Positions 50,616 to 63,797 of a DNA stretch of 64,000 bases are shown here, piece after piece. Numbering within the stretch: the first letter of the stretch is position 1; each line of letters opens with the position of its first letter. This DNA is from a virus, in the IMG/VR virus record IMGVR_UViG_3300037993_001242, positions 1 through 64,000 of that record; one strand, written 5' to 3'. The translations under genes were made by a program, and so were the position numbers. The notes below the pieces were generated by a model. The model was not told the origin of the DNA. It saw nothing but the letters and a program-made list of their open reading frames with translations, and did no database searches.

Positions 50616-50616
50616 T

Positions 50617-50858: not shown

Positions 50859-50862
50859 AAAA

Positions 50863-51263: not shown

Positions 51264-51282
51264 GTTCCCAAGAACACGATTT

Positions 51283-51546: not shown

Positions 51547-51550
51547 AAGA

Positions 51551-51847
51551 TCATCGGGTTACCCAAAGCCCCATTCGCTCACAATGACGTTCGTTCAACG
51601 GAAACGGCCCCGTCCAGCCAACCTGTTTCAAATCCGAAAGAATATGCTGCCGTGCAGCTTCAGCGGCCTTCGGCCCCCACAGGTGCGCTACTTCGGCGAT
51701 CCCGGCTTCATGATGGCGTTTACGCCGGTGAGCAACGCCGCCACAGCCGGGCAGATCGTGGCAGGCATCCAACCACACGTGGACTTCGCGAAAACCTTGA
51801 CCATACGTGCTGATCGATTCAGCGCAATGTTCTTCCAAAGTTGGCAT
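51551..51847 (-). CDS. His-rich DUF6915-like protein
   Basis: EHC..S...EVHVWLD...HRRKRHHEAGI...QHILSDL. Confidence 0.55.
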   Translation of the reverse strand: MPTLEEHCAESISTYGQGFREVHVWLDACHDLPGCGGVAHRRKRHHEAGIAEVAHLWGPKAAEAARQHILSDLKQVGWTGPFPLNERHCERMGLWVTR

Positions 51848-51850
51848 AAA

Positions 51851-52078
51851 TTAAGAATACCGGTCGGGCAGACGGGCGCGCCAGTTGTCCTCCCAGTTTG
51901 CTGCTGCTTCAAATTGAGCGCGCACTTCTTCCAAAGTGGGCGGTGGTAAATTGCGCAGGTTTTCCATGCGTTGTTTCAGCCATAACGGAGCACCGAGACC
52001 GTCATCATAGTCACCGGTGCTGAGCGCTGTCAGCGCACAATGCTTAAAATCTTCATGTGTGCCTTCTTCAATTATCAT
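51851..52078 (-). CDS. hypothetical protein
   Basis: 75 aa ORF. Confidence 0.45.
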   Translation of the reverse strand: MIIEEGTHEDFKHCALTALSTGDYDDGLGAPLWLKQRMENLRNLPPPTLEEVRAQFEAAANWEDNWRARLPDRYS

Positions 52079-52080
52079 CG

Positions 52081-52118
52081 AAATAAAAGCGGCTGGACGG
52101 AAATATCCATCCAGCCGC
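52081..52118 (-). terminator. terminator after Ro60
   Basis: GCGGCTGGATGGA-TATT-TCCGTCCAGCCGC-TTTTATTT. Confidence 0.85.
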
Positions 52119-52132
52119 CGTGATTGTCTACG

Positions 52133-53848
52133 CTAATCTTCGGCTTCGTCGGCAGCAACCTTGCGGTCGCCCCGGATGAAGTCGGCGATTACCGGCGGAG
52201 CCGACGCGTCGAAACCGACCACGTCCATGCCCCACTTGTCCTCCGGGTCGTTGACCGTGAAGTCGTTGGCGCAGGTACCCACGAACACTGACCGGGTATC
52301 CGGCACGAACTTTTCACGGTACTCCCGCAGGCGCAGAGTTGGATGCGGGCCTTGGTTGACCTCGCCGTCGGTCATAACGATCAGACCGCCGATCTTCAGA
52401 CGGTTTTGCAGTGCGTACTCGATTGCCAAGCTGATGTTGGTCGAACCGAAGTTGTTCACCTGTGCCCGACGGCACGCCGTTTCCAGCGTCATGCCCTTGC
52501 GGATGCCAAGCTCGCGGAAGGTATCCGCGAATCCGAAGATATGGCATTCCGGCTCGACGCTGGCGTGAACCAGCGACAGGGCGGCGACGGCCTCACACGA
52601 AGACAGGGGAGTTCCTGCCATCGCCGAGGACATCGAACCGGACACGTCCAGCGCGATCAACAGCGGCTTGCCGCACGGTTCAACGTTCGGGAACGCCGCG
52701 TAAAAGGCTTCGTCCAGCGCCGTCATGATTGACGGAACCGGCGTCCAGCTTAGCTTACCCTTGTCACCATGGCCTTGACCGTAAATCTTGGTCGCGATCA
52801 AGACCTGCATCGGGTGAACGCGTGACTTCTTCAGGAACGCGCCGTCCTGCAACCGCTTCTGGACGAGCTTGGTGGCTTCGCCCAGCGGCTTCAGGAGACC
52901 GAGGCTGGTCATCTTGCCAAGATTACGGATCGTCGCCGTCAACGGCATCTTCTGCAACAGGGCTTCCCAGACCGCGAGGCTGTTGAGCTTCTCGGTCGGT
53001 ACGGCCTCACGCGGCAGGTTGTGCTCGGTGATCAGCTTGACCAGCGCCTTTTCGTCGGCAGTCTTGGCTTCCTCGAACGCGCCGATGATGTCCGGCAGAT
53101 ACTTTTTGACGGAAGGATACTTCCGAATACGCGGGATGTCCGGTGCCATTGACTTCGGCAGGTTGGGAAACTTTCGGGTGACCTCGCGGGCACCCAGCGC
53201 GTCCTTGCCGCCGATGATCCAGCGGAAGACGGCCTGCTGTGCCTTGACCTCGGTGACCGGGTGGGCCACGCGAAGCACGTCACGAGCCGACCAGCCGTCG
53301 CGCTGCTGATACTTGACGACCTGCGCCGCCAAACGGTCAGCGGGCATGTCCGTGAACCAGCGGGCGATAGCGCGCCGGAAACCAGAGCCGCCGCCCCGCA
53401 TCGCCGAACAGTACTGCATGAAGTGGTACAGGTGCGTACCAATCCGGCAGACCTTCGGCAGCGCGGCATAAGCTGCCTGCCGGGCTTCCGCGTCACCGTG
53501 GGTGGCGACCAGCGCCAGTGCAAAAATGGCCGGGTCGTTCTTGTAGGCGCGTCCCTTGACGGACACATCTACAATCTCCTTGACCGTCCGCACACCGCTG
53601 GCCTTGATACACTGCAACACCGCGTCGTGGCCCTGCTTGAGCAAGTCCTTTTCGTCGATGTAATAGGTGCCGCCTTCGGTACCGAGAATCAAAAACCGCG
53701 CCAGCTTGTCCCAGATGCTGACCTTCCAGACGTACGCGCCGTCCGAGTCCTGAACCTGATTCTTGCCCGGCAACGGAGTGTATACAGAGGTCGTGCGCGA
53801 ACGCTTGGCTGACCGGGTGTCGAACTGCTTGGTGCTGATGAGTGCCAT
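52133..53848 (-). CDS. rsr: Ro60 / TROVE-vWA RNA-binding protein
   Basis: LARFLILGTEGGTYY, YQQRDGWSARDVLRVAHP, MPLTATIRNLGKMT, vWA MIDAS ALDVSGSM, VMTDGE, DVVGFD. Confidence 0.97.
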   Translation of the reverse strand: MALISTKQFDTRSAKRSRTTSVYTPLPGKNQVQDSDGAYVWKVSIWDKLARFLILGTEGGTYYIDEKDLLKQGHDAVLQCIKASGVRTVKEIVDVSVKGRAYKNDPAIFALALVATHGDAEARQAAYAALPKVCRIGTHLYHFMQYCSAMRGGGSGFRRAIARWFTDMPADRLAAQVVKYQQRDGWSARDVLRVAHPVTEVKAQQAVFRWIIGGKDALGAREVTRKFPNLPKSMAPDIPRIRKYPSVKKYLPDIIGAFEEAKTADEKALVKLITEHNLPREAVPTEKLNSLAVWEALLQKMPLTATIRNLGKMTSLGLLKPLGEATKLVQKRLQDGAFLKKSRVHPMQVLIATKIYGQGHGDKGKLSWTPVPSIMTALDEAFYAAFPNVEPCGKPLLIALDVSGSMSSAMAGTPLSSCEAVAALSLVHASVEPECHIFGFADTFRELGIRKGMTLETACRRAQVNNFGSTNISLAIEYALQNRLKIGGLIVMTDGEVNQGPHPTLRLREYREKFVPDTRSVFVGTCANDFTVNDPEDKWGMDVVGFDASAPPVIADFIRGDRKVAADEAED

Positions 53849-53940
53849 ATCCTTGGAATGACAATCACACTCCAACTACGATGTGTTTTCGGGTTTTCAC
53901 CGTTGGCCCATGCCATGGGCCTGATTCTGTTTTTGTTGGA

Positions 53941-53963
53941 CGCAGGCAAGTTGGCGGCCTGCG
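53941..53963 (-). promoter_or_regulatory. minimal Ro-binding-site hairpin in the Ro60 leader
   Basis: CGCAGG-C(bulge)-CG-ccaacu-UG-CCUGCG reproduces the bulged-C helix of the Y RNAs. Confidence 0.55.
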
Positions 53964-53992
53964 AATGTCTACATTGCTGAGAACTGCATTTT

Positions 53993-54367
53993 TTAAGATT
54001 TGTTTACGAAAAAATTACAGGTTGACGTTGGCTCAACCCTGAACCGGTGTAAAAGGCATCTTGGCGGAAACCGATGCCAACCTTGTGCTTTTTTATAATA
54101 CACACAACAAATACATCCTAGTACGTCGCCCGGTGCCCGTTTTCTACTGGAACTAAGATAACCAACTTCTTCCTGTTGCCCGCGTTTGAACAATCTTTTG
54201 ACTGTGCCGACTGACCGCTGTTGAATTTTGGCTATCTTTACCCACGAAACTCCGGTTCTGCGAAGCTCGATAATGTAGGCCCAGCGCCGCCGCATCATTT
54301 TTCGGCCATTTTCAGGGGAAAGAATGCGCAGAACTTCTCGTTTGCTGACAACGTCTGGATCAAACAT
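53993..54367 (-). CDS. HTH protein with Cys-rich tail, between Y RNA and Ro60
   Basis: ELRRTGVSWVKIAKIQQRSVGTVKRL; CICC...C. Confidence 0.6.
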   Translation of the reverse strand: MFDPDVVSKREVLRILSPENGRKMMRRRWAYIIELRRTGVSWVKIAKIQQRSVGTVKRLFKRGQQEEVGYLSSSRKRAPGDVLGCICCVYYKKAQGWHRFPPRCLLHRFRVEPTSTCNFFVNKS

Positions 54368-54380
54368 GCAGTAAATAAAA

Positions 54381-54517
54381 GCGGGCAAGGGTTTGGGTCG
54401 GAGATGGCTTTCGCCAAACCACTGCTCTGCCAATTGAGCTACCCCGGCATTTGCGCCGGAGGCTGGAATCGAACCAGCAACCAACGGTTTTATGATAACC
54501 AACCACAGTCGGCCCGC
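54381..54517 (-). ncRNA. yrlA: Y RNA, YrlA type (Ro stem plus permuted tRNA-like domain)
   Basis: GCGGGCCGA/UUGCCCGC bulged-C stem; T arm GCUGG-UUCGAUU-CCAGC, closed acceptor CUCCGGC-gcaaau-GCCGGGG, D arm GCUC-AAUUGGCA-GAGC in permuted order. Confidence 0.9.
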
Positions 54518-54523
54518 TAAAGT

Positions 54524-54835
54524 TTATGGCCCGCGCAGGCGGTTTAACCGCCAATCAGTTGGTGTCGAATCCGCAATCTCTTCACCGCTGACTGTGCTGA
54601 TCGTGCCGTCTTCGTTATGCACGGTTAAAATTCTATTTTCGTAATCCCACTCCCAGCTTTCATCCCAATTACCGGTAGCACTACTGCTATCCCTGACCCA
54701 ACGCGCAATGCCGTCCAATTCAACCGCATGACTTGGCATCTGATTGTCCAGATGCTGAAGATAATCCTTCGGTCGAATCACATCAGGATCATCTTCCAGC
54801 AAAAAATCAACAAGCTGTTTTGGTGCCAAACCCAC
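54524..54835 (-). CDS. tagged hypothetical protein (APKQLVDFLLEDDPDVIRPKDYL)
   Basis: Shared tag; GTAGTTA 4 nt upstream. Confidence 0.7.
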   Translation of the reverse strand: MGLAPKQLVDFLLEDDPDVIRPKDYLQHLDNQMPSHAVELDGIARWVRDSSSATGNWDESWEWDYENRILTVHNEDGTISTVSGEEIADSTPTDWRLNRLRGP

Positions 54836-54850
54836 GCCGTAACTACTAAA

Positions 54851-54935
54851 GGCACAGGCGGGGCGTTCTCATGGGGGTGGGAGCCACCACGCCCGAATCT
54901 CAGTTCCACCCTGAACTGCTTTCAATACCTGTGCC
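54851..54935 (-). ncRNA. unclassified structured RNA A (85 nt)
   Basis: Terminal stem GGCACAGG/CCUGUGCC enclosing two hairpins; 5 nt after the tRNA-Phe CCA. Confidence 0.55.
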
Positions 54936-54940
54936 AAAAA

Positions 54941-55017
54941 TGGTGCCAAGGGCTGGTTTCGATCCAGCGACACCGACCTCTTCAGGGTCGTGCTCTACCA
55001 ATCTGAGCTACCTTGGC
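54941..55017 (-). tRNA. tRNA-Phe(GAA)
   Basis: Loop CUGAAGA, CCA; T loop AUCGAAA. Confidence 0.92.
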
Positions 55018-55019
55018 AA

Positions 55020-55265
55020 TGGTGCTGTCTTGGAACCTTCAGCAGTGGGTCGCAGTTCCGCCGTTGCTTAAATAAGCCGCAGTACTAACGCTAATGAGCG
55101 TCTGGAACACACTGCGACCCCCAGTCACGCTATTGACGACAACTTGTACTTGTCTCCCACAACCGGGTCAGCGCATTCCGCTCAAGATGGTATTGGTATC
55201 AAGCCGTGGTAGTTTACGTGATTTTCCCACACTTACGGGCAGATTTTACGATCTGCAACAGCACC
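55020..55265 (-). ncRNA. unclassified structured RNA B (~246 nt)
   Basis: Terminal stem GGUGCUGU/ACAGCACC, GGGUCGCAGU/ACUGCGACCC and several hairpins; no ORF in the track. Confidence 0.6.
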
Positions 55266-55274
55266 AAAAATAAC

Positions 55275-55342
55275 GTCCGGGAAGCCCTCAGAAAGGTCGG
55301 TGCGAACGACGCACCGTGATGTTAAAAACGAGCCACCCGGAC
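55275..55342 (-). ncRNA. unclassified structured RNA C (68 nt)
   Basis: GUCCGGG/CCCGGAC closing stem, inner CGGUGCG-ucguu-CGCACCG; 3 nt after the tmRNA CCA. Confidence 0.45.
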
Positions 55343-55345
55343 ACA

Positions 55346-55771
55346 TGGTGGAGGCGGCGAGAGTTGAACTCGCGTCTTTGACTCCGTTGCATGTTGCCAC
55401 TACACGCTTATCCCGTTTTGTACAAGCTCAGCCAGTTGGGCATCTATGTGAAAAAATCTGAGCAGGTTCGGTTGATCCAACCGTAGAAGCGCCGACATTG
55501 CTCGGCACTCACACGATCCTGCTGCATCGCTCGACCCGCCGTAGCAGGCATCCAGCGGCGAACGGTGTGGCGCTTTAGGCCACAGCAAGTTCGGCATTCA
55601 GGACGGCATCAGGGTTGGCGAAAATCGCTTCCGCCTGAGCCAGCAAGCCTGCCGGACAATCATTTGCTTCGTCAGCATTTGAGTTTTGATCCGAGTTTTT
55701 AGCGAGGCCAACGAATCATCCTCGGCGTGCAACAGCATACTTCAGTTTCAAATCGAAACCAGTACGCCCCC
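55346..55771 (-). ncRNA. ssrA: tmRNA, tag ADEANDCPAGLLAQAEAIFANPDAVLNAELAVA*
   Basis: 5' GGGGGCGUACUGGUUUCGA, 3' GCGAG-UUCAACU-CUCGC-CGCCUCC-ACCA, G3-U70 pair; tag frame 55676-55575. Confidence 0.95.
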
Positions 55772-55790
55772 ATTTCAAAGATCAAAAAAC

Positions 55791-55852
55791 GATGGGCAAG
55801 GTGGTGCAGGAAGGGTTGTCCAAGGATGATAACCTTCCAACTTCGGCCCATC
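55791..55852 (-). ncRNA. short Y RNA 2 (62 nt)
   Basis: GAUGGGCCGA/UUGCCCAUC bulged-C stem; GGUUAUCA 9 nt after CCG. Confidence 0.8.
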
Positions 55853-55855
55853 AAT

Positions 55856-55950
55856 TCGACCCGGCCCCGTCGTCAGTTCGTGCCGGAACGCACAAGAATG
55901 TCCATGCCCGGCTGATCAATTCCGGGCGCTGACCCAGTTGTACCTGTGCC
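55856..55950 (-). ncRNA. unclassified structured RNA D
   Basis: Starts GGCACAGGUA like RNA A; GUCAG/CUGAC junction with GCCCGG/CCGGGC and GUGC/GCAC hairpins; 4 nt after the fMet CCA. Confidence 0.5.
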
Positions 55951-55954
55951 AAAT

Positions 55955-56031
55955 TGGTTGCGGGGGAAGGATTCCAACCTCCGACCTCTTGGTTATGAGC
56001 CAAGCGCGCTTGCGGACTGCGCCACCCCGCG
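55955..56031 (-). tRNA. initiator tRNA-fMet(CAU)
   Basis: C1:A72 mismatch, CGCGGGG acceptor, loop CUCAUAA. Confidence 0.88.
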
Positions 56032-56049
56032 ATCAAAAAGAACACGATA

Positions 56050-56078
56050 TTTGTAATCCTGCTGATTAAAAACGTCAA
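56050..56078 (-). promoter_or_regulatory. sigma70-type promoter for the fMet/Y RNA/tmRNA run
   Basis: TTGACG-17 nt-TACAAA about 18 nt upstream of fMet. Confidence 0.55.
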
Positions 56079-56097
56079 CAAAATTTTCACAGGAAAT

Positions 56098-56181
56098 TGG
56101 TCGGCGCGAAGGGACTTGAACCCCCAAGGATCACTCATTTTGAATGAGGTCAGTCTGCCATTCCTGATGAACCACGCGCCG
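56098..56181 (-). tRNA. tRNA-Leu(CAA), atypical fold
   Basis: Loop UUCAAAA; linker UGGUUCAU, variable GAUCCUU. Confidence 0.85.
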
Positions 56182-56185
56182 AAAA

Positions 56186-56494
56186 TCAATCTTCGCCGGT
56201 GACCTGCCGCAAAAGTTTTTTGGCGTAGTCCGCCGCGATCCACACTTCCGCTTCGTCGTCGTCGATGTAAACTTCAAAACCAACGTCGTTTTTATTGCAG
56301 TAGTCGTAGACCGCTTTAACCTCTGGATTGGTTTGGGCAATGTATTCGGCTACATAATCGGCAGCATAATTCCCGGCAAATCCGATTTTGCGCAAATCGA
56401 TTAGTTGGTCATACGTGGCCTGTTGAAACCACGGTTCAGCATCGAAGCTAACCTCCATGGCATTGTCATCGGATATGATTGTCGCCGGGATCAT
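56186..56494 (-). CDS. hypothetical phage protein
   Basis: MIPATIISDDNAMEVSFDAEPWF... Confidence 0.6.
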   Translation of the reverse strand: MIPATIISDDNAMEVSFDAEPWFQQATYDQLIDLRKIGFAGNYAADYVAEYIAQTNPEVKAVYDYCNKNDVGFEVYIDDDEAEVWIAADYAKKLLRQVTGED

Positions 56495-56506
56495 CGTCTT
56501 AAATAC

Positions 56507-56591
56507 TGGTCGCCGGAGCGGGACTCGAACCCGCAAGGCTGCTGGATTTTAAGTCCAGTGGGTCTGCCAATTCCACCTTAACCACCCGGCG
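56507..56591 (-). tRNA. tRNA-Leu(UAA), atypical fold
   Basis: Loop CUUAAAA; linker UGGUUAAG, variable CAGCCUU. Confidence 0.85.
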
Positions 56592-56632
56592 AATACTCCA
56601 AAAAGTTTCTGATGAACGGAAGTAGTTAAGCC

Positions 56633-57646
56633 GTGAGAACAAAACACAAGATTCTGTTCATCCTGAAACGGCATCACTATGGGCCGTCCTACGGATTGCT
56701 GAATTCCTGCCAGTTCGTCGCCGAAGCTCTCCGCAGGGAAGGCGTCGAGACCAAAATCATCGAAGTTGTAGACAACAACAGCATTGACCGTGAAGTCACG
56801 CGCTATTTGCCGACGCACGTAATCATCGAAGCTTTGTGGGTTGTTCCCCAAAAATTTCCCGTCTTGCTCCAACTTCATCCCGCCATCCAGTGGGCCGTTC
56901 GCATTCACAGTAACGCACCGTTTCTTTCCGGCGAAGGCATGGCGCTGGAATGGCTGTACGGCTACGGCAAGGTGGCCAAAACTTTCAGTAATTTCCATGT
57001 CGGAGCCAACAGCCGCAAAATGTCCACGGAACTTGATCTGGCGTTGGGTATGGACTCCCTTTATCTGCCAAACATTTACACCGACAGCCTGACCCAGAAA
57101 CGACTGCCTCCGCCATTTGAAAAATCACATCAGGCGCACGTGAACATCGGCTGCTTTGGCGCGATCCGACCGCTCAAAAATCACTTGGAGCAGGCGCTGG
57201 CCGCGATTATTTTTGCCCGTTCAATTGGGCGGCCATTACGATTCCACATCAACGCCACCCGTGTTGAACAAAATTCCGATCCGATTTTGCGCAACTTGAT
57301 CAGCCTGTTCGCCCACGGGCCAAATCATTTGGTACAGCATCCGTGGATGCCGCACGATCAATTCATCGAAGTGCTGCGCCGCATGGATTATGGAATGCAG
57401 GTCAGTTTCTCGGAAACCTTCAACATCGTGGCCGCCGACTTCGTATACAACGAAATCCCGTTCGTTGGATCAAAGGAAATTGAATGGCTGGCATCCCACA
57501 GTATTGCCGATCCAACCAACTGGGAAAGCATTGTTGACCGGCTAAACCAAAGCTACTCGCACCACATCATTCACGAAAACAAACACGCCCTGCATTCTTT
57601 CAGTATTCAATCACTGAAAGAATGGCTGGAATACATCGACGATTAA
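56633..57646 (+). CDS. GT-B glycosyltransferase (GT4-like)
   Basis: GCFGAIRPLKNH, MQVSFSETFNIVAAD; GTAGTTA 4 nt upstream. Confidence 0.82.
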   Translation: MRTKHKILFILKRHHYGPSYGLLNSCQFVAEALRREGVETKIIEVVDNNSIDREVTRYLPTHVIIEALWVVPQKFPVLLQLHPAIQWAVRIHSNAPFLSGEGMALEWLYGYGKVAKTFSNFHVGANSRKMSTELDLALGMDSLYLPNIYTDSLTQKRLPPPFEKSHQAHVNIGCFGAIRPLKNHLEQALAAIIFARSIGRPLRFHINATRVEQNSDPILRNLISLFAHGPNHLVQHPWMPHDQFIEVLRRMDYGMQVSFSETFNIVAADFVYNEIPFVGSKEIEWLASHSIADPTNWESIVDRLNQSYSHHIIHENKHALHSFSIQSLKEWLEYIDD

Positions 57647-57650
57647 AATT

Positions 57651-58445
57651 ATGGCCTTTAGACACAACACCAAATACGGCTGGCGGCGCGACCGCCCGGA
57701 CATCCGCGACTTCAAATTCGAGCGCATGGTCACGCTCAAAACCCTGCGCACCACGGCGCTTCCGGCGCACGTTTATCTGCGCCGTTTTTGCTCACAAATT
57801 ACAGATCAGGGCCAACTTGGGTCTTGCACTGCCAACGCATTGACCAATCTGCTGGAATACAACGAATGTGCCAACGGACGCGGCGGTAAACAGTTCAAGG
57901 ATTTGAGCCGTCTTTTTGTTTATTACAACGAACGGACACTGGAAGGTACTGCTGGTCAGGACGCCGGAGCCGAACTGCGTGATGGCATCAAATCATTGGC
58001 CACCTACGGGGTCTGCCCGGAAACCGAATGGCCTTACGTCGAAAATAAATTTGCCATGCCTCCCACGACACAATGCTACGGCGACGCCATTCCTTACAAA
58101 ATCCACAGCTACTACACCCTGAACACCCTTACTGACATGCGCGTTAGCTTGGCTAACGGCAATCCCTTCGTCTTCGGATTCACTGTATACGAATCGTTTG
58201 AATCTGACGAAGTCGCCAGCACCGGAATCGTCCAGATGCCCAAAGCGGGCGAACAAGTTTTAGGTGGTCATGCGGTCATGGCCATGGGCTACAACGACGC
58301 CCAGCAGCGGTTCCTCGTCAAAAACTCGTGGGGCAAAGACTGGGGTCTCAAAGGCGAATTGGGCGGCTATTTCACCTTGCCCTACGGCTATTTTACCGAC
58401 CCAAACCTGTCGTCCGACTTTTGGACGGTGGTCAAGGACATCTGA
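57651..58445 (+). CDS. papain-like C1 family cysteine peptidase
   Basis: DQGQLGSCTANA, GGHAV, KNSWG catalytic motifs. Confidence 0.95.
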   Translation: MAFRHNTKYGWRRDRPDIRDFKFERMVTLKTLRTTALPAHVYLRRFCSQITDQGQLGSCTANALTNLLEYNECANGRGGKQFKDLSRLFVYYNERTLEGTAGQDAGAELRDGIKSLATYGVCPETEWPYVENKFAMPPTTQCYGDAIPYKIHSYYTLNTLTDMRVSLANGNPFVFGFTVYESFESDEVASTGIVQMPKAGEQVLGGHAVMAMGYNDAQQRFLVKNSWGKDWGLKGELGGYFTLPYGYFTDPNLSSDFWTVVKDI

Positions 58446-58448
58446 AAT

Positions 58449-58533
58449 TGGTGCCGGTGAAGGGACTCGAACCCCCAAGGCTGCGGCGTCCTAAGCGCCG
58501 TGGGTCTGCCAATTCCCCGTTAACCACACCGGC
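58449..58533 (-). tRNA. tRNA-Leu(UAG), atypical fold
   Basis: Loop CUUAGGA; linker UGGUUAAC, variable CAGCCUU. Confidence 0.85.
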
Positions 58534-58539
58534 ATAAAT

Positions 58540-58623
58540 TGGTCGCGCTGAGTGGACTTGAACCACCAAGGATCACCGCCTCTGAAGCGGGCCGGTCTGC
58601 CATTCCCGGTAAACCACAGCGCG
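58540..58623 (-). tRNA. tRNA-Leu(CAG), atypical fold
   Basis: Loop UUCAGAG; linker UGGUUUAC, variable GAUCCUU. Confidence 0.85.
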
Positions 58624-58635
58624 TAATTAAATCAG

Positions 58636-59244
58636 ATGAAACGAAATCCAAAGCCGCTGCCAGATCGTGGCGATCCGGCGCATGATCCGCATCTCCCGCA
58701 CACGACGCGGTATCAAAAACGCGACATTGAGCACCTGATCCCACCAGAAGCCAATGCCGTTATCGAGCAGCAGTGGCCGGAGGTTATTCGTACGTTCCAG
58801 CAATACGATGAAGGCGCTGGAATGCTGATGCTTTTTGGCCTCGTCCGCGACGCGTGCAAAGCAGCAAAGTGGCCTGACACCATGGCCTATCAGATGCGCG
58901 ATTATCTGCTCACCAAGCTCAATGCCGAAAAAGTCAAAACATACACCGGGAGCGATGACCGCCCCGGTGACTGGAAGGTTTTCAACATGAAAGAGTCCGC
59001 CGAACAAATTGTCGACCGTCTGCTGGAATACGGCCTACCCAATACTCCCACAAGCGCCGATCTTAAAATCGAAAATCACGGCAGCATCGTTTTGGTTCGG
59101 CCCTTAACCGACGCCGGTAAAGAAGGGCTGCGAAGAACCGCCCCTGAAGATGCACAATTCATGGGCGACGCCATGGCGGTCGAACCCCGCTACGTCGAAG
59201 GCGTCACTGACGCCGCGCAAGAGGATGGTCTGACCGTTTCGTAG
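58636..59244 (+). CDS. two-part protein with internal tag (ESAEQIVDRLLEYG)
   Basis: GTAATTA 6 nt upstream. Confidence 0.7.
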   Translation: MKRNPKPLPDRGDPAHDPHLPHTTRYQKRDIEHLIPPEANAVIEQQWPEVIRTFQQYDEGAGMLMLFGLVRDACKAAKWPDTMAYQMRDYLLTKLNAEKVKTYTGSDDRPGDWKVFNMKESAEQIVDRLLEYGLPNTPTSADLKIENHGSIVLVRPLTDAGKEGLRRTAPEDAQFMGDAMAVEPRYVEGVTDAAQEDGLTVS

Positions 59245-59255
59245 TTAACATCGGT

Positions 59256-59789
59256 ATGAACATCGACGAACGAGAAGCCAAACTGAGCACCGGCAAACGC
59301 TTTGCCAAACTGGAGCGGCCATCGACCCGCAAAAAAAGCACCCAAGACACAGGTGCAAGCTGGATGCCACACGGCGGCCAAAAAACATCCAGCAAAGAAC
59401 GCCTTCAAAAAAGTGGCGCAAGCTGGCTACCACATCACGAATCTGCCGCCCAGATCGTGGCCCGCCTGCTGGAATATGAAAATGTTGCCAGCACGGGAGG
59501 GCCGGGCAACACCGGTACTGGTTACAACCCGGAAACTCTGCACCAAACCATTCGCTATTTGATGCAGACGCTCGGTATCGACTATCCAGAAGCGCGTGAT
59601 ATTGCCATGCAGCATCACGATCCCAAAGCGGGCGGTACACGTGAACCAATGCAGGCGGCTGAACCTGAAGCGGCGGAACCACCGCCTGAACGACCGTTGA
59701 TGACGCAACGGCCTGAAACTCATTGCGGTCGCTGTGGATCGAGACATCACCACACCGCCAATTGCCACTTGAGCGGCATACCGCTGTAA
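59256..59789 (+). CDS. protein with duplicated GASW(M/L)PH and internal tag (ESAAQIVARLLEYE), C-terminal Zn knuckle
   Basis: CGRCGSRHHHTANC; GTAGTTA 8 nt upstream. Confidence 0.7.
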   Translation: MNIDEREAKLSTGKRFAKLERPSTRKKSTQDTGASWMPHGGQKTSSKERLQKSGASWLPHHESAAQIVARLLEYENVASTGGPGNTGTGYNPETLHQTIRYLMQTLGIDYPEARDIAMQHHDPKAGGTREPMQAAEPEAAEPPPERPLMTQRPETHCGRCGSRHHHTANCHLSGIPL

Positions 59790-59791
59790 AA

Positions 59792-59866
59792 TGGTACGCC
59801 CGACTGGACTTTAACCAGTAACCTGTGGTTCCGAAGACCACTGCTCTATCATTGAGCTACGAGCGC
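59792..59866 (-). tRNA. tRNA-Arg(UCG)
   Basis: Loop CUUCGGA; T loop UUAAAGU. Confidence 0.88.
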
Positions 59867-60088
59867 ATGAAAGCCGAACAAATCGTTAACATCCTTCTGG
59901 AAGCCGGGCCAGATGAAGTCCCGCCCAAGGACTATCTTAAAAAAGTCCCTCCGCCTCCACGTTGTCCGATGTGTGACAGCTTTAACGTCAAGGTCGTGCG
60001 CCGCCCGGAAGACAATTCCATCGATTACGCGGAATGTTTGGACTGCGGCGAAATCGGGCTGTCTTTCTTTAGCGACGAGAATAGTTAA
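59867..60088 (+). CDS. tagged zinc-ribbon protein (MKAEQIVNILLEAGPDEVPPKDYL)
   Basis: CPMC...CLDC. Confidence 0.75.
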   Translation: MKAEQIVNILLEAGPDEVPPKDYLKKVPPPPRCPMCDSFNVKVVRRPEDNSIDYAECLDCGEIGLSFFSDENS

Positions 60089-60092
60089 AGTG

Positions 60093-60362
60093 ATGAATGC
60101 AAAACAGATTGTAACTGTGCTTCTTGAACTGGAGCACCCCATTGCCCGTTGCCCCGTTTGCAGCGGAAACAGTATGCACGAAATCATGGGTCTTGAACAC
60201 GGCTGGCGTTGTAATATCTGCGGACACGAATTCCAGTGGCCACCACCAGAGCATCCTCCTTTGGCTGGAGAAAAAACCAAATCAAAAATCCCACCCAAAG
60301 CCATGATGATGGCCGTCACTGGCGGTTCGGACTTCCCGATTGCAGGCGGCGGTCAGGGCTGA
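60093..60362 (+). CDS. tagged zinc-ribbon protein (MNAKQIVTVLLELE)
   Basis: CPVC...CNIC; ATAGTTA 5 nt upstream. Confidence 0.75.
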   Translation: MNAKQIVTVLLELEHPIARCPVCSGNSMHEIMGLEHGWRCNICGHEFQWPPPEHPPLAGEKTKSKIPPKAMMMAVTGGSDFPIAGGGQG

Positions 60363-60376
60363 CGTAGTTAAGATAT

Positions 60377-60790
60377 ATGGCAGACAGCACAACAACCAAC
60401 GGTGTGGTTCTTCAAACGCCTTACGCGTACCTGAAGAATTTCGTAAGAGTGCGCCCGTTTACGGTATCAGTGATCGGCGTCAATCCGCTGCTCAATCAAA
60501 ACAGCGACAATTTGCGAGTCTTCCCCACCAACTACCAGAGCCAACTATACGGTGTCGCCAATGGCATCATTGTATACGTCGGTGACAAAATTCATTTCGA
60601 CCTTCAAGCCCCTTGCAACGATGCCACGGCCCCTGCCTTTGACCTCATTCAAGTCAACCCATCGACTGGTGTCGAGACGACGCAGGAAACGGCGCGGTTT
60701 ACCGCCAAATGGCAGCGCAGCATGGTCATCACCGTCACGGCCATCAACGCCTCAACGGGAGCCATTACGTACACTGTCGCTTATCGGTAA
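60377..60790 (+). CDS. beta-rich hypothetical, probable virion protein
   Basis: 137 aa; GTAGTTA 6 nt upstream. Confidence 0.65.
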   Translation: MADSTTTNGVVLQTPYAYLKNFVRVRPFTVSVIGVNPLLNQNSDNLRVFPTNYQSQLYGVANGIIVYVGDKIHFDLQAPCNDATAPAFDLIQVNPSTGVETTQETARFTAKWQRSMVITVTAINASTGAITYTVAYR

Positions 60791-60791
60791 A

Positions 60792-60868
60792 TGGTGCGGC
60801 GAGCAGGCTTCGATCCTGCGACTTCCACGATGTCAACGTGGCGATCTACCGGGCTGATCTACCGCCGC
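60792..60868 (-). tRNA. tRNA-Val(GAC)
   Basis: Loop UUGACAU; T loop AUCGAAG. Confidence 0.92.
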
Positions 60869-60872
60869 AAAA

Positions 60873-60948
60873 TGGAGCCAGCAGAGGGCTTCGATCCCCC
60901 GACATTCAGTTTACAGAACTGACGCTCTACCAACTGAGCTATGCTGGC
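60873..60948 (-). tRNA. tRNA-Thr(UGU) with C33
   Basis: Stem UCAGU/ACUGA, loop UCUGUAA. Confidence 0.82.
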
Positions 60949-60954
60949 CTAAAT

Positions 60955-61030
60955 TGGTGCGTTGGGTGGGCAACGATCCCACAATCTTCCGGGTAAGGGC
61001 CGGGTGCTCTGCCAATTGAGCTACCAACGC
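60955..61030 (-). tRNA. tRNA-Lys(CUU) with C33
   Basis: Stem CCCGG/CCGGA, loop CCCUUAC. Confidence 0.78.
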
Positions 61031-61035
61031 AAAAA

Positions 61036-61111
61036 TGGTCGCTGTGGGCGGGTACGATCCGCCGACCTTTTCCTTATGAGGGAACTGCGCTACCAACTGC
61101 GCCACACAGCG
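61036..61111 (-). tRNA. tRNA-Met(CAU), elongator-like
   Basis: Loop CUCAUAA, paired C1-G72. Confidence 0.82.
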
Positions 61112-61118
61112 TGAAAAA

Positions 61119-61685
61119 TCAATTTATAGCGCTAAAAGCTTCGCTTAACTGCTCTCCAAGTTCCGGCGTGATTCTGTTCGCCGGAACAAACGCCTGTACG
61201 GCATAGCGCCCATTAAAAACATGCGGGCCAACCGTTATAGAAAATTCAGCTTGCGGAAACCGAGTTTCCAGCGCGCTCATTCTGTGCCAAAGGTCTCGTT
61301 CAATTTCCTCCGTCGTCACGGGGCCTTCCCACGCGTCGCGGATGGCCTGTTCATCGTCGCTTCCCTCTGGATTAAGAAATTTTTCTTCAAAAAGAACACC
61401 ATACTGCCCGTCCATTATCCGCTGTACGATGAAATTGTTTTCCCAGCCACCAATACACCGCTGTAGACGCTGAATGATATTTTTTACTTTTCGGGATGCA
61501 CCGGGAATTTTCGGCACACCTTCGCCGGATTCCAAATCTTGACCCCAACGATCACTGAGATACTTAAATTCCTCGGCGCGCTTAATCTTGTCCCGCCAAC
61601 CGGGCAGCCGCATCACTTCCGCTTTGGCGGGCAGTTCATCCGGCCCAACCTCAAGCAGTCGATTCACTAACGCCTTTGCATTCAT
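61119..61685 (-). CDS. tagged hypothetical protein (MNAKALVNRLLEVGPDELPAK)
   Basis: Shared tag, 188 aa. Confidence 0.72.
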   Translation of the reverse strand: MNAKALVNRLLEVGPDELPAKAEVMRLPGWRDKIKRAEEFKYLSDRWGQDLESGEGVPKIPGASRKVKNIIQRLQRCIGGWENNFIVQRIMDGQYGVLFEEKFLNPEGSDDEQAIRDAWEGPVTTEEIERDLWHRMSALETRFPQAEFSITVGPHVFNGRYAVQAFVPANRITPELGEQLSEAFSAIN

Positions 61686-61689
61686 AACA

Positions 61690-61765
<76 letters not shown>

Positions 61766-61769
61766 AAAA

Positions 61770-61845
61770 TGGAGCGAACGACGGGAAACGATCCCGCAAC
61801 ATCCGCGTTGGAAGCGCGGTGCTCTGCCAATTGAGCTACGTTCGC
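61770..61845 (-). tRNA. tRNA-Gly(UCC)
   Basis: Loop CUUCCAA, U73. Confidence 0.92.
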
Positions 61846-61857
61846 AAAAATTCAAGA

Positions 61858-62214
61858 TCATGGATGGCCTTCGTTGGCCTTTTTGGCGGCAGCTTCACGC
61901 TGCTGTTGTTCCACCCATTGCTCCCATTCTATAAAACTTGGGATATGACCAATGATTTGATCACCATTTCTCAGCATACCGTGACTAAAATCTTTGGTCA
62001 CCGTTTTATAACCAACGGACGGCGTGGGCTGGCCAGTGAGGCTCATATCCGCCGGATAATAACCTGTAAAGACACCGTCAGTGACTGAACCATCGGGATG
62101 CTGAATTTTGATCGGAATTTCAAGATGCTTAATGCGTCCATATTCCAACAGCAAATCCACGATGTTGCGCGCATTTTCTTGGATGCGGGCGTTTTTTTCA
62201 GCACTGTCACTCAT
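61858..62214 (-). CDS. tagged hypothetical protein (QENARNIVDLLLEYG)
   Basis: Start 62214 with GTAATTA 5 nt upstream. Confidence 0.68.
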   Translation of the reverse strand: MSDSAEKNARIQENARNIVDLLLEYGRIKHLEIPIKIQHPDGSVTDGVFTGYYPADMSLTGQPTPSVGYKTVTKDFSHGMLRNGDQIIGHIPSFIEWEQWVEQQQREAAAKKANEGHP

Positions 62215-62236
62215 TACTTTAATTACCAAAGCAAAT

Positions 62237-62312
62237 TGGAGACCAACCAGAGACTCGAACTCTGCTAAATCGGTTTTGCAGACCGTTCCGTTCACCCGCT
62301 CGGTCGTTGGCC
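62237..62312 (-). tRNA. tRNA-Cys(GCA)
   Basis: Loop CUGCAAA, U73. Confidence 0.88.
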
Positions 62313-62740
62313 GTTATTGGAGAAATTATGTTCTCCAATGTATGAAATTGAAAGTAAAAATCTTAAAATTAAAAACGCAAAGGAATTTGCAACAAAGAGA
62401 TAGCGGAAAAACTCGGATGCAGTCCAACAACCATAACGTATCATTGCAACGAAGCTTATCGTAAACGGCACACTTTTAACAGGCAACGACGACGTTCTGA
62501 AATAAAAACCCAGATTGTAAATCAATTTGGTGGCAAGTGCAAAATTTGTGGTTACGACCGTTGCGTCGATGCCTTGGAGTTTCACCATACCAAAGATAAA
62601 GACTCGGTTATTTTACTAAAAGGAAGCGCGGGTTTATCAAGATTACCATTCAAAATCTTAATGGCTGAACTCAAAAAGTGTATACTTTTGTGCTGTCGCT
62701 GCCATCGTGAAGTCCATGCCGGTGTTGTTTCTATTTAAAT

Positions 62741-62815
62741 TGGGGTGACGTACGAGATTCGGACTCGTGCTTTTTGTTCCACAAACAAAGGTGCTACCAC
62801 TACACCAACGCCACC
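62741..62815 (-). tRNA. tRNA-His(GUG)
   Basis: G-1:C73, loop UUGUGGA. Confidence 0.9.
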
Positions 62816-62825
62816 ATTAAAGAAC

Positions 62826-62901
62826 TGGAGCCTGTGGCCGGTGACGATCCGACAACCTGCGCATTACGAATGCGCCGCTCTGCCAATTGAGCTACACAGG
62901 C
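62826..62901 (-). tRNA. tRNA-Thr(CGU)
   Basis: Loop UUCGUAA. Confidence 0.92.
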
Positions 62902-62905
62902 AAAA

Positions 62906-62982
62906 TGGTAGGGGATGCAGCGTGACGTGCTGCGACCTCCTCGGTGTAGGCGAGGCGCTCTTGGCATCTGAGCTAATCCCCC
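62906..62982 (-). tRNA. tRNA-Val(UAC) with C33 and swapped elbow
   Basis: Loop CCUACAC; D loop GCC, T loop ACGUCAC. Confidence 0.8.
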
Positions 62983-62989
62983 GTTAAAA

Positions 62990-63066
62990 TGGCGTTCCCG
63001 ACTGGACTTTAACCAGTGGCCTCCGCCTTCGCAGAGCGGCGCTCTATACAACTGAGCTACGGGAAC
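62990..63066 (-). tRNA. tRNA-Arg(GCG)
   Basis: Loop CUGCGAA; T loop UUAAAGU. Confidence 0.85.
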
Positions 63067-63069
63067 AAA

Positions 63070-63146
63070 GTGGGCAAAAATCGTCGGAGGACATTGACAG
63101 AAACGCTTAATAGGCATTTGTTGATAACCCTCAGACAGCGGCCCAC
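63070..63146 (-). ncRNA. short Y RNA 3 (77 nt)
   Basis: GUGGGCCG/UGCCCAC stem; GGUUAUCA 9 nt after CCG; 3-4 nt spacers to the flanking tRNAs. Confidence 0.78.
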
Positions 63147-63150
63147 AAAA

Positions 63151-63227
63151 TGGTACTTCCGGCTGGAGTTTAACCAGTAACCTCTTCCTTCGGAGGGAAG
63201 CGCTCTATACAATTGAGCTACGGAAGC
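63151..63227 (-). tRNA. tRNA-Arg(CCG)
   Basis: Loop CUCCGAA; T loop UUAAACU. Confidence 0.88.
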
Positions 63228-63234
63228 GTCAAAA

Positions 63235-63630
63235 TTAAAGTTCAAAATCCTTGGCAAATCGGATGCGCTTTGATTGATTATTTACAGTGGGATCAACGCG
63301 TAAATATGCAATACTGCTGCCGGGAACAGAATCAACAGGAACCAAATAACAGCAACCTGTGTCAGGACAGTAAACTCCAAAAAGTTCAGCTTGACCTTTG
63401 TAATCACGCCGACCTGTTTTCCAACTGAAACCGCTGGCAGTATTAAAAACTATTGAACCGTTCCTAAGCCGACCTGTTTTACACTGTATACGCTTAAAAA
63501 TACCACCTTCATCCAAGAGCAAATCGTAACGGCTACCTTCTCCAAACGGACGCAACACATTCTTCCCAAGCTCTGTTAGCCTAACAGCAATTTTTAGCTC
63601 GGACAAATTTCCTTTTTGGGCCGTATTCAC
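63235..63630 (-). CDS. PD-(D/E)XK homing endonuclease (group I intron-associated type), free-standing
   Basis: KGNLSELKIA...PFGEGSRYDLLLD...RIQCKTG. Confidence 0.88.
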   Translation of the reverse strand: MNTAQKGNLSELKIAVRLTELGKNVLRPFGEGSRYDLLLDEGGIFKRIQCKTGRLRNGSIVFNTASGFSWKTGRRDYKGQAELFGVYCPDTGCCYLVPVDSVPGSSIAYLRVDPTVNNQSKRIRFAKDFEL

Positions 63631-63646
63631 GCAACAAAGAACAAAG

Positions 63647-63725
63647 TGGCAGCCCATACCGGTGTCGATCCGGTTTCTGCTGCTTGAGAAGCAGCCATCC
63701 TAAGCCAAACGTAGACGAATGGGCC
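63647..63725 (-). tRNA. tRNA-Glu(CUC)
   Basis: Loop UUCUCAA, G73-CCA. Confidence 0.9.
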
Positions 63726-63733
63726 AAATTAAA

Positions 63734-63797
63734 TACGGGCAAGGTGTCAGACTGGGATGGTTCATTTCAAGTGATAACCCAATCAATTCGGCCCGTA
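63734..63797 (-). ncRNA. short Y RNA 4 (64 nt)
   Basis: UACGGGCCGA/UUGCCCGUA stem; GGUUAUCA 9 nt after CCG. Confidence 0.8.

What the first reader, a model, noticed from the sequence alone, without database searches (positions are those of the whole stretch)
52133..63797. Phage Ro60 with a family of four Y RNAs dispersed through a tRNA/tmRNA array
Seen: an intact Ro60 gene and four non-coding minus-strand elements at 54381-54517, 55791-55852, 63070-63146 and 63734-63797. All four have a terminal helix GGG-C(bulge)-CG / UG-CCC and the identical octamer GGUUAUCA exactly 9 nt after CCG. Known: the bulged-C helix (GUCCGA/UUGAC in animal Y RNAs) is the Ro60 binding site, and bacterial Y RNAs tether Ro60 to effectors such as PNPase or gate its cavity. 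Inference: one phage Ro60 is loaded with several interchangeable adaptor RNAs with different payload domains. They are co-transcribed with tRNAs and tmRNA and may protect or recycle phage RNAs during host tRNA-targeting defence. Four Y RNAs per Ro60, up to 10 kb from the gene, exceeds the one or two usually described.
Basis: partly seen in the sequence, partly recalled or inferred. Interest (0 to 1): 0.92.

Follow-up and report, generated by a model that had tools for sequence, protein, structure and literature searches.

The report
Phage Ro60 with six Y RNAs
A large uncultured phage encodes the ring-shaped RNA-binding protein Ro60 plus six small partner RNAs scattered among its tRNA genes. 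Their stems closely resemble those of human and worm Y RNAs, and the same RNA class lies next to Ro60 in many other phages and bacteria.

Summary
Ro60 (52133-53875, minus strand) is intact. The four elements match GGGCCG-N9-GGTTATCA exactly. Two more members lie just past the window at contig 64390-64518 and 70846-70931, so there are six. Four are short stem-bulge RNAs of 56-85 nt. Two carry a YrlA-type permuted tRNA module.

A covariance model built from relatives finds the short class beside Ro60 in uncultured phages and in bacteria of many phyla. It is usually on the Ro60 strand and often present in 3-6 copies, with strong compensatory base changes in both stems. Ro60 linkage is highly significant (Fisher p = 2e-17).

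The stem matches animal Y RNAs. It scores just under threshold against the Rfam nematode sbRNA model. Human Y4 has the same GGUCCG-N9-GGUUAUCA. UUAUC has so far been discussed as an animal DNA-replication motif.

These are very probably Ro60-binding Y RNAs matured with the tRNA array, but no binding or transcript data exist. The defence-related function is untested.

Phage Y RNAs are already known (YrlA; phiLo Yrl1 and Yrl2), so this is a new variant of a known kind. Earlier notes of this scan cover the same stretch of the same contig (e1-5773240, e1-5773259), not other DNA.

The parts
52133..53875 (-). Ro60 gene (580 aa): TROVE ring domain plus vWA domain with an intact DxSxS MIDAS motif
   Evidence: Pfam TROVE 1e-39 and vWA_Ro60 2e-38. 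PDB matches: 1yvp 1e-106, human 9nen 7e-103, Rsr 2nvo 6e-101. D410, S412 and S414 are invariant in 9 phage orthologues.
52088..52119 (-). Strong terminator-like hairpin (14 bp stem plus U tract) 14 nt after the Ro60 stop. Likely end of the minus-strand unit.
   Evidence: The scan as a whole is not above chance, but this is the longest stem found.
54381..54517 (-). Y1: YrlA-type Y RNA. It combines a Ro60-binding stem, an upper stem, UUAUCA and a permuted tRNA-like module (T arm, 7-bp acceptor hairpin, D arm) with a canonical UUCGA T-loop.
   Evidence: Pattern match. Rfam YrlA 39.9 bits against a threshold of 69, E 6e-6. Fold at -54.8 kcal/mol, z -2.1.
55791..55852 (-). Y2: short stem-bulge Y RNA, 19 nt upstream of the tmRNA 5' end
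   Evidence: Pattern match. Rfam sbRNA RF01656 34.0 bits against a threshold of 38, aligned end to end. R1 62.8 bits as a seed sequence.
63070..63146 (-). Y3: short Y RNA with a ~40-nt hairpin insert. It lies between tRNA-Arg(ccg) and tRNA-Arg(gcg), with 4-nt and 3-nt U spacers.
   Evidence: Pattern match. R1 32.5 bits, E 1e-5, and not a seed sequence. tRNA coordinates, sequence.
63734..63797 (-). Y4: short stem-bulge Y RNA
   Evidence: Pattern match. RF01656 28.7 bits, E 0.022. R1 60.8 bits as a seed sequence.
55346..55771 (-). Phage tmRNA, immediately downstream of Y2 in the RNA sense
   Evidence: ARAGORN. Rfam tmRNA 113.5 bits.
54941..55017 (-). tRNA-Phe, between the tmRNA and Y1
62990..63227 (-). 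tRNA-Arg(ccg), Y3 and tRNA-Arg(gcg) as one unit. tRNA end-processing would release Y3.

Best explanation
This is a phage Ro60 ribonucleoprotein system made of one Ro60 ring protein and six phage-encoded Y RNAs.

Shared architecture (shown from sequence and covariation):
- A terminal helix formed by the 5' and 3' ends, 5'-GGG(C)CGA paired with UUGCCC-3' and a bulged C. This is the known Ro60-binding helix.
- An asymmetric internal loop.
- A roughly 9-bp upper stem that ends in GG:CC.
- The motif UUAUC directly after the upper stem, followed by a variable module.

In four RNAs the variable module is one or two small hairpins. In two (Y1 and, outside the window, Y5) it is a YrlA-type permuted tRNA mimic with a 7-bp acceptor stem.

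Maturation (inferred): the genes sit in the minus-strand tRNA/tmRNA array, some only 3-4 nt from flanking tRNAs. They are probably made from the tRNA precursors and released by the tRNA end-processing enzymes.

Function (inferred by analogy with Deinococcus, Salmonella and Thermus phage phiLo): each RNA docks on the outer face of Ro60. From there it gates the central cavity and tethers the ring to a partner. The most likely partner is a host 3'-5' exoribonuclease such as PNPase; the two tRNA mimics would instead engage tRNA-binding factors. The phage could then redirect decay or quality control of structured RNA during infection.
For: Protein: Ro60 is intact and close to structurally solved Ro60 proteins.

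Motif and location: there are four exact matches against 0.41 expected. All six members on the contig are on the minus strand within 54.4-70.9 kb. Model R1 finds no other convincing hit in 199 kb; the next best scores 16.7 bits.

Ro60 linkage:
- Of 117 IMG/VR stretches that match the bare pattern, 26 carry Ro60 in the stretch. Of those 26, 25 have a full R1 hit, against 8 of the 91 without Ro60. Fisher p = 1.6e-17.
- Two of those 8 have TROVE elsewhere on the contig.
- In 35 bacterial loci found through the Ro60 protein alone, R1 gives 52 hits. Of these, 51 are on the Ro60 strand, mostly within 1 kb upstream.

Structure:
- In the set found by protein only, 85.0% of cells pair, against 64.3% in shuffles.
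- That set has 217 double-sided changes against 78 +/- 6.5 (0 of 500 shuffles), and slid controls give 53-67.
- The phage set gives a similar result.
- MFE folds of 24 members show the same architecture.

Known families: YrlA scores 39.9 bits for Y1 and 35.9 bits for Y5. The nematode sbRNA model scores 34.0 and 28.7 bits.

Literature:
- The bulged helix is the Ro60 site, and GGC(C)GA is protected by Rsr in Yrn1 (PMC4201824).
- YrlA-related RNAs occur in 22 phages.
- phiLo Ro60 binds two phage Y-like RNAs and forms complexes with host PNPase (PMC12135203).
Against: - There is no transcript or binding evidence.
- All Rfam matches fall below the curated thresholds, and the vertebrate Y_RNA model gives no hit at E <= 10.
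- The R1 alignments are fitted to the model's structure. Many phage loci were recruited with a pattern that contains GGTTATCA, so motif conservation there is partly circular. The set found by protein only reduces this problem but does not remove it.
- The contig encodes no PNPase partner, RtcB, RNA ligase or CCA-adding enzyme that I could find. The effector is therefore a guess.
- Two nearly complete phage contigs carry a variant of the RNA without any TROVE gene.
Confidence: 0.78

Rival explanations
1. The RNAs are counter-defence decoys or sensors rather than, or as well as, Ro60 adaptors. This phage has rewritten the T-loops of nearly all its tRNAs, yet the tRNA-like modules of Y1 and Y5 keep the canonical UUCGA T-loop. 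They could soak up or report a host enzyme that reads that loop, or sequester a host Ro60.
For: Of the phage tRNA calls, 35 of 39 have non-UUC T-loops such as AUCGAAG or UUAAAGU. Y1 (CUGG-UUCGAUU-CCAG) and Y5 (CAGG-UUCGAGU-CCUG) are canonical. Variant Y-like RNAs occur in about-complete phage contigs that lack TROVE, so a phage RNA can exist without a phage Ro60.
Against: Four of the six RNAs have no tRNA module. YrlA modules keep canonical T-loops in bacteria generally, so retention may simply be ancestral. No nuclease or defence gene is linked here. The tight Ro60 linkage is explained more simply by direct partnership.
Confidence: 0.1
2. They are punctuation elements of the tRNA array, such as processing hairpins or leaky terminators, and their likeness to Y RNAs is coincidental.
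For: Each is a GC-rich terminal helix followed by a U-rich tract and sits in tRNA spacers.
Against: The same RNA lies beside Ro60 in bacterial loci with no tRNA array. Base-specific conservation of GGGCCGA/UUGCCC and UUAUC, together with covariation in the upper stem, goes well beyond what a terminator needs. The terminator scan is not above chance.
Confidence: 0.05
3. The upper stem plus UUAUC acts without Ro60 in DNA replication, as reported for vertebrate Y RNAs and nematode sbRNAs.
For: UUAUC and the upper stem are the elements required for replication activity of sbRNAs and Y RNAs (PMC4726728). The phage RNAs carry both at the same spacing.
Against: No bacterial or phage replication role for Y RNAs is known. 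The RNA tracks Ro60, not replication genes. The GUG-CAC core of the upper stem is not conserved across the family (one search shows every upper-stem pair varying).
Confidence: 0.03
4. A dispersed repeat or mobile element, or chance.
For: Multiple copies on one strand.
Against: Copies share only the functional motifs, while their helices differ through compensatory changes. There are no shared flanks. 0 of 100 shuffles reach four matches.
Confidence: 0.01

Closest known systems
YrlA (Rfam RF02553; Chen et al. 2014, PMC4201824), including the mycobacteriophage members
   Same: Encoded on the Ro60 strand. Carries the GNCGAA(N0-1)G 5' motif (GCCGAAG here). Y1 and Y5 have the T arm, acceptor and D arm in permuted tRNA order with a 7-bp acceptor stem, like the M. 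smegmatis form. YrlA-related RNAs were reported in 22 phages.
   Different: Scores are 39.9 and 35.9 bits against a threshold of 69. Both strands of the Ro60 helix are conserved here, whereas only the 5' strand is recognisable in Salmonella and M. smegmatis YrlA. An upper stem and UUAUC are present. Four of the six members have no tRNA module. The genes lie up to 17 kb from Ro60, compared with within 4 kb.
Animal Y RNAs and nematode stem-bulge RNAs (Rfam RF00019, RF01656)
   Same: GGNCCG(A), a 9-nt spacer, then GGUUAUC(A), with a CUUGNCC 3' strand and a bulged C. Human Y4 has the identical octamer at the identical spacing. Phage Y5 shares a 15-mer (AGUGUUGUGGGUUAU) with human Y5. Y2 aligns end to end with the sbRNA consensus. 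Both occur as multi-copy families.
   Different: Prokaryotic or viral origin. Embedded in tRNA operons rather than transcribed as Pol III genes. Scores are 34.0 and 28.7 bits against a threshold of 38, and RF00019 gives no hit. The GUG-CAC core of the upper stem is not conserved. There is no pyrimidine-rich loop.
Deinococcus radiodurans Yrn1/Yrn2 with Rsr and PNPase (RYPER)
   Same: The literature calls these the 'more metazoan-like' bacterial Y RNAs. Both helix strands are retained. GGC(C)GA is protected by Rsr. They are encoded upstream of rsr. This system is the mechanistic model for tethering and gating.
   Different: I made no direct sequence comparison here. A review states that DrY has no upper-stem similarity to vertebrate Y RNAs. 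PNPase tethering is not shown for the phage.
Thermus phage phiLo Ro60 with Yrl1 and Yrl2 (PMC12135203, 2025)
   Same: A phage-encoded Ro60 with more than one phage-encoded Y-like RNA. Binding was shown by EMSA and cryo-EM, and the complex associates with host PNPase.
   Different: Two RNAs directly upstream of the gene, compared with six dispersed among tRNAs. The phiLo RNAs were identified by a CGAA motif, and UUAUC or a tRNA-array context is not reported in the passages I read.

Membership tests
Y RNA (Ro60-bound ncRNA, functional definition) | Stem formed by the 5' and 3' ends that contains the conserved bulged-C Ro60-binding helix | tested here: met
   GGG(C)CGA/UUGCCC is present in all six. 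Helix 1 is 95% paired with compensatory changes such as G:C to A:U at position 5 in 12 of 48.
Y RNA (Ro60-bound ncRNA, functional definition) | Encoded with, and co-distributed with, a Ro60 gene | tested here: met
   Same strand, 0.5-17 kb from Ro60. Cross-contig association gives Fisher p 1.6e-17. In bacteria, 51 of 52 hits are on the Ro60 strand.
Y RNA (Ro60-bound ncRNA, functional definition) | Physically bound and stabilised by Ro60; accumulates as a discrete small RNA | not testable with these tools
YrlA (RF02553) | Reaches the Rfam gathering score | tested here: not met
   39.9 bits (Y1) and 35.9 bits (Y5) against 69. The short members give no hit.
YrlA (RF02553) | tRNA-like module with T arm, acceptor-like stem and D arm | tested here: met
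   Met for Y1 and Y5 only. ARAGORN even calls Y5's module a 'tRNA-Ser'. Absent from Y2, Y3, Y4 and Y6.
YrlA (RF02553) | GNCGAA(N0-1)G motif in the 5' strand | tested here: met
   Exact in Y2, Y5 and Y6 (GCCGAAG, GCCGAAUG). Partial in Y1, Y3 and Y4. The family consensus is GGGCCGAAG.
Nematode sbRNA (RF01656) and vertebrate Y_RNA (RF00019) | Reaches the Rfam gathering score | tested here: not met
   RF01656 scores 34.0 and 28.7 bits against 38. RF00019 gives no hit at E <= 10.
Nematode sbRNA (RF01656) and vertebrate Y_RNA (RF00019) | Upper stem followed by a conserved UUAUC motif | tested here: met
   UUAUC is present in all six. Among 48 hits found by protein only, 34 have UUAUC, 5 have UUACC, and the spacer is 9 nt in 36 of 39. 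All nine upper-stem pairs covary. The proposed AUC/GAU hairpin is not supported, at 47-55% paired.
Ro60 / TROVE protein | TROVE HEAT-repeat ring plus vWA domain with a MIDAS motif | tested here: met

The most novel reading that the evidence does not exclude
The lower stem, upper stem and UUAUC together form one ancient unit that travels with Ro60 through bacteria, phages and animals, by common descent or by transfer together with the protein. If so, UUAUC and the 9-nt spacing serve the Ro60 particle itself and are not an animal-specific replication signal. The supposed split between 'metazoan-like' and 'YrlA' bacterial lineages would also be false, because Y1 and Y5 combine both. In this phage the six RNAs would be interchangeable adaptors. 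That includes canonical-T-loop tRNA mimics kept deliberately different from the phage's own remodelled tRNAs.
Probability: 0.3. Interest if true: 0.85.

Novelty: new variant of a known kind. Interest (0 to 1): 0.7.

Why it matters
Y RNAs have been known since 1981, yet what their conserved upper stem and UUAUC motif do is still debated. Reviews state that bacterial Y RNAs are not homologous to vertebrate ones and lack upper-stem similarity (PMC4726728).

Here the full animal-type stem, at identical spacing, appears next to Ro60 in phages and in bacteria of many phyla. That puts the question within reach of simple bacterial and phage genetics and biochemistry. Diverged copies also lie in unannotated gaps upstream of Ro60 in cultured phages (Mycobacterium phage Cane17, Vibrio phage BONAISHI).

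The finding also gives a concrete multi-adaptor Ro60 system inside a phage tRNA operon. It supplies seed alignments for an RNA family that Rfam does not currently capture.

Tried and rejected
- Megablast of the locus against GenBank phages gave no match.
- The Rfam vertebrate Y_RNA model gave no hit.
- The sigma-70 promoter and terminator scan was not above chance, so it says nothing about transcription units except for the strong hairpin after Ro60.
- Searches of the contig for RtcB, RNA_ligase (PF09414) and PolyA_pol/CCA-adding enzyme found none. I therefore dropped the idea of a linked RNA-repair operon.
- A third helix pairing (A)UC with GA(U) was put into the model but is not supported, at 47-55% paired. 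UUAUC is better treated as a conserved unpaired motif.
- Model R1 does not detect the two long YrlA-type members because of their large inserts. They were found by pattern search and by Rfam instead.
- A seventh YrlA-like Rfam hit at contig 71546-71672 (27.4 bits) has the permuted tRNA module but no Ro60 stem.
- Two reviews (PMC10870794, PMC6047535) and the supplements of Chen et al. 2014 are not held. Prior description of this short class cannot be fully excluded.

Full report
**What is there**

The window is the first 64 kb of a 199,098-bp IMG/VR virus record estimated at 82% complete. The ORF at 52133-53875(-) is a complete Ro60. It has a TROVE domain (E 1e-39) and the Ro60-type vWA domain (E 2e-38). 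It matches Xenopus Ro60 (1yvp, E 1e-106), human Ro60 (9nen, E 7e-103) and Deinococcus Rsr (2nvo, E 6e-101). The MIDAS residues are invariant among phage orthologues. A 14-bp terminator-like hairpin follows its stop codon.

Upstream on the same strand, from 50.3 to 74.3 kb, lie 39 ARAGORN tRNA calls and a tmRNA. One of those 39 is really a module of Y5.

**Checking the observation**

GGGCCG-N9-GGTTATCA occurs four times with no mismatch, always on the minus strand and at the stated places. With two mismatches allowed, 0.41 matches are expected, and no shuffle reaches four. Each element closes with UUGCCC, which pairs with GGG(C)CG.

Relaxing the spacer on the whole contig adds two members outside the window:
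- Y5 at contig 64390-64518.
- Y6 at contig 70846-70931.

Y1 and Y5 carry a permuted tRNA-like module (T arm, 7-bp acceptor hairpin, D arm). They are sub-threshold YrlA matches at 39.9 and 35.9 bits against a threshold of 69. Y2, Y3, Y4 and Y6 are compact RNAs of 56-85 nt.

**Is it a real RNA family tied to Ro60?**

I scanned IMG/VR for the bare 14-base pattern and got at least 117 stretches, as chance would predict. Separately, I scanned for relatives of the Ro60 protein and got 12 loci.

By tblastn, 26 of the 117 pattern stretches carry Ro60 inside the few kb fetched. Individual folds of 24 elements from about 15 contigs give one architecture:
- a terminal helix;
- an internal loop;
- an 8-9-bp upper stem whose sequence differs from copy to copy through compensatory changes;
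- UUAUC directly after the upper stem.

I built covariance model R1 from these elements. Its results were:
- **Own contig:** only Y2 and Y4 (seed sequences), Y6 (33.2 bits) and Y3 (32.5 bits). The next best hit scores 16.7 bits.
- **39 Ro60-bearing loci:** 75 hits at E <= 0.01, often three or four per contig.
- **91 pattern stretches without Ro60 (760 kb):** 10 hits in 8 stretches. Two of those 8 contigs have TROVE elsewhere.
- **Association:** 25 of 26 against 8 of 91, Fisher p = 1.6e-17.

An independent test used bacterial loci recruited through the protein only. This gave 35 loci from Armatimonadota, Planctomycetota, Verrucomicrobiota, Chloroflexota, Poribacteria, Acidobacteriota, Actinomycetes, Brocadia and others. 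R1 produced 52 hits there. Of these, 51 are on the Ro60 strand, mostly just upstream, with up to six in one locus.

Covariation on the set found by protein only:

| Measure | Observed | Control |
|---|---|---|
| Cells paired | 85.0% | 64.3% in shuffles |
| Double-sided changes | 217 | 78 +/- 6.5 in shuffles (0 of 500 reach 217) |
| Double-sided changes, slid registers | 217 | 53-67 |

All nine upper-stem pairs covary. The phage set behaves the same way. The alignment is fitted to the model, which favours the structure. The gap to the slid controls is nevertheless large.

In this independent set the spacer is 9 nt in 36 of 39 cases. The motif is UUAUC in 34 and UUACC in 5 of the 48 hits.

**Resemblance to animal Y RNAs**

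The best Rfam matches of the short elements are to the nematode stem-bulge RNA family RF01656, the worm homologues of Y RNAs. Y2 scores 34.0 bits and Y4 scores 28.7 bits against a threshold of 38.

The alignment runs end to end. The consensus GGUCCG, nine nucleotides, GGUUAUCA ... CACCAACUUGACC lines up with Y2's GGGCCG, nine nucleotides, GGUUAUCA ... CACCACCUUGCCC.

Published human sequences show the same pattern:
- Y4 has GGUCCG-AUGGUAGUG-GGUUAUCAG.
- Y5 has GGUCCG-AGUGUUGUG-GGUUAUUG.
- Phage Y5 shares the 15-mer AGUGUUGUGGGUUAU with human Y5.

The literature treats UUAUC and the upper stem as elements needed for the DNA-replication activity of vertebrate Y RNAs and sbRNAs. It describes bacterial Y RNAs as not homologous to the vertebrate clades and lacking upper-stem similarity (PMC4726728). 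Chen et al. 2014 do not mention UUAUC. They note that only the 5' strand of the Ro60 helix is recognisable in YrlA, and they regard the 'metazoan-like' Deinococcus RNAs as a separate lineage.

Y1 and Y5 join an animal-type stem to a YrlA-type tRNA module, which argues against a clean split between those lineages.

**Genomic setting and maturation**

- **Y3** lies 4 nt (UUUU) after the CCA of tRNA-Arg(ccg) and 3 nt before tRNA-Arg(gcg).
- **Y6** follows tRNA-Trp after CCA-UUUU.
- **Y5** follows a tRNA after CCA-UUUUA.
- **Y2** lies 19 nt before the tmRNA.

The same CCA-UUUU-R spacer separates the tRNAs themselves. Co-transcription with neighbouring tRNAs, and release by RNase P and the 3'-end machinery, is therefore the simplest reading for these members. 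This is inference.

A plus-strand block at 56.6-60.8 kb, which includes a papain-like protease, shows that the 24-kb array is not one transcript. Related large-phage loci (L134, L136, L129) also have R1 hits wedged between tRNAs.

**Function**

No data here show what the particle does. The known cases are the Deinococcus RYPER complex, Salmonella Rsr-YrlA-PNPase, and phiLo Ro60-Yrl with host PNPase. By analogy, I judge it most likely that each RNA docks on Ro60, gates its cavity and tethers it to a host exoribonuclease or to tRNA-binding factors.

The contig encodes no RtcB, Rnl2-type ligase or CCA-adding enzyme. I therefore see no support for a self-contained repair operon.

Of the phage tRNA calls, 35 of 39 have non-canonical T-loops, while the tRNA mimics in Y1 and Y5 keep UUCGA. 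It may be mere ancestry, or it may mean these modules are meant to be read by host factors that the phage tRNAs avoid.

**Known or new**

Phage Ro60 and phage Y RNAs are established:
- YrlA-related RNAs in 22 phages.
- phiLo Yrl1 and Yrl2.
- A suggestion for Listeria phage CKA15.

As far as I could check, the following are not described:
- The short class with the complete animal-type stem and UUAUC.
- Its wide occurrence in multiple copies beside Ro60 in both phages and bacteria.
- Six members in one phage, dispersed through a tRNA array.
- The chimeric Y1 and Y5.

Rfam 15 has no family that reaches threshold on them. Two key reviews were not available to me, so prior description cannot be fully excluded.

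Diverged copies sit in unannotated gaps upstream of Ro60 in cultured phages:
- Vibrio phage BONAISHI, 30.5 bits.
- Mycobacterium phage Cane17, 22.8 and 19.0 bits.
- Gordonia phage Sixama, 19.3 bits.

These phages offer experimental systems.

**Verdict**

The identification as Y RNAs is strongly supported by comparative evidence but not by experiment. The mechanism is inferred. It is a new variant of a known kind, and its main interest is the animal-type stem and UUAUC motif in prokaryotic and viral Ro60 systems.

Noticed in passing
contig G000:C1 64390-64518 and 70846-70931 (minus strand, outside the window; L006:390-518 and 6846-6931): Fifth and sixth family members. Y5 is YrlA-type with a 7-bp acceptor stem and an encoded CCA, and ARAGORN miscalls it as a 68-nt tRNA-Ser. 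Y6 is a short type directly after tRNA-Trp.
   Followed up: yes
contig G000:C1 71546-71672 (minus strand; L006:7546-7672): A permuted tRNA-like RNA (T arm, acceptor hairpin, D arm; YrlA 27.4 bits) without the Ro60-binding stem.
   Followed up: partly
all tRNAs, window 50370-63227 and contig up to 74307: Of 39 tRNA calls, 35 have non-canonical T-loops (AUCGAAG, AUCGUGC, UUAAAGU and others). The tRNA-like modules of Y1, Y5 and the 71.5-kb RNA keep UUCGA or UUCAA. All tRNAs encode CCA.
   Followed up: partly
window 63640-63720 (minus strand): A tRNA-shaped sequence ending in GCCA lies directly downstream of Y4. Its anticodon-loop-like sequence is UUCUCAA. Neither ARAGORN nor the Rfam tRNA model calls it.
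   Followed up: no
window 63235-63657 (minus strand): A PD-(D/E)XK endonuclease (PF11645, E 6e-32) is inserted in the tRNA array between tRNA-Arg(ccg) and Y4. It may be a homing-type endonuclease.
   Followed up: no
window 56633-60790 (plus strand): A block of six plus-strand ORFs, including a papain-family cysteine protease (57651-58445, E 9e-14), interrupts the minus-strand tRNA array.
   Followed up: no
L100:5612-5673, L114:835-896, L088:6067-6131, L094:10894-10959: A variant of the RNA (GGGCCGGA...GGGUUAUCA...ACAUGACC, with a G.A opposition in the lower stem) occurs in phage contigs where no TROVE was found. Two of these are 96-100% complete. They may be orphan Y RNAs that use a host Ro60.
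   Followed up: partly
L127:9620-9800: A short Y RNA appears to be nested inside the acceptor-loop position of a YrlA-type RNA just upstream of Ro60.
   Followed up: no
L174:4653-5901 (Armatimonadota MAG) and other bacterial loci L147-L181: Tandem arrays of up to six short Y-like RNAs lie directly upstream of bacterial Ro60 genes in many phyla.
   Followed up: partly
L133:10001-11614: The Ro60 match in a 437-kb phage contig contains one in-frame stop. The cause could be a pseudogene, recoding or a sequencing error.
   Followed up: no
L183:5588-5931 (Mycobacterium phage Cane17) and L186:5405-5465 (Vibrio phage BONAISHI): Diverged members of the short class lie in unannotated gaps just upstream of the annotated Ro-like genes of cultured phages.
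   Followed up: partly
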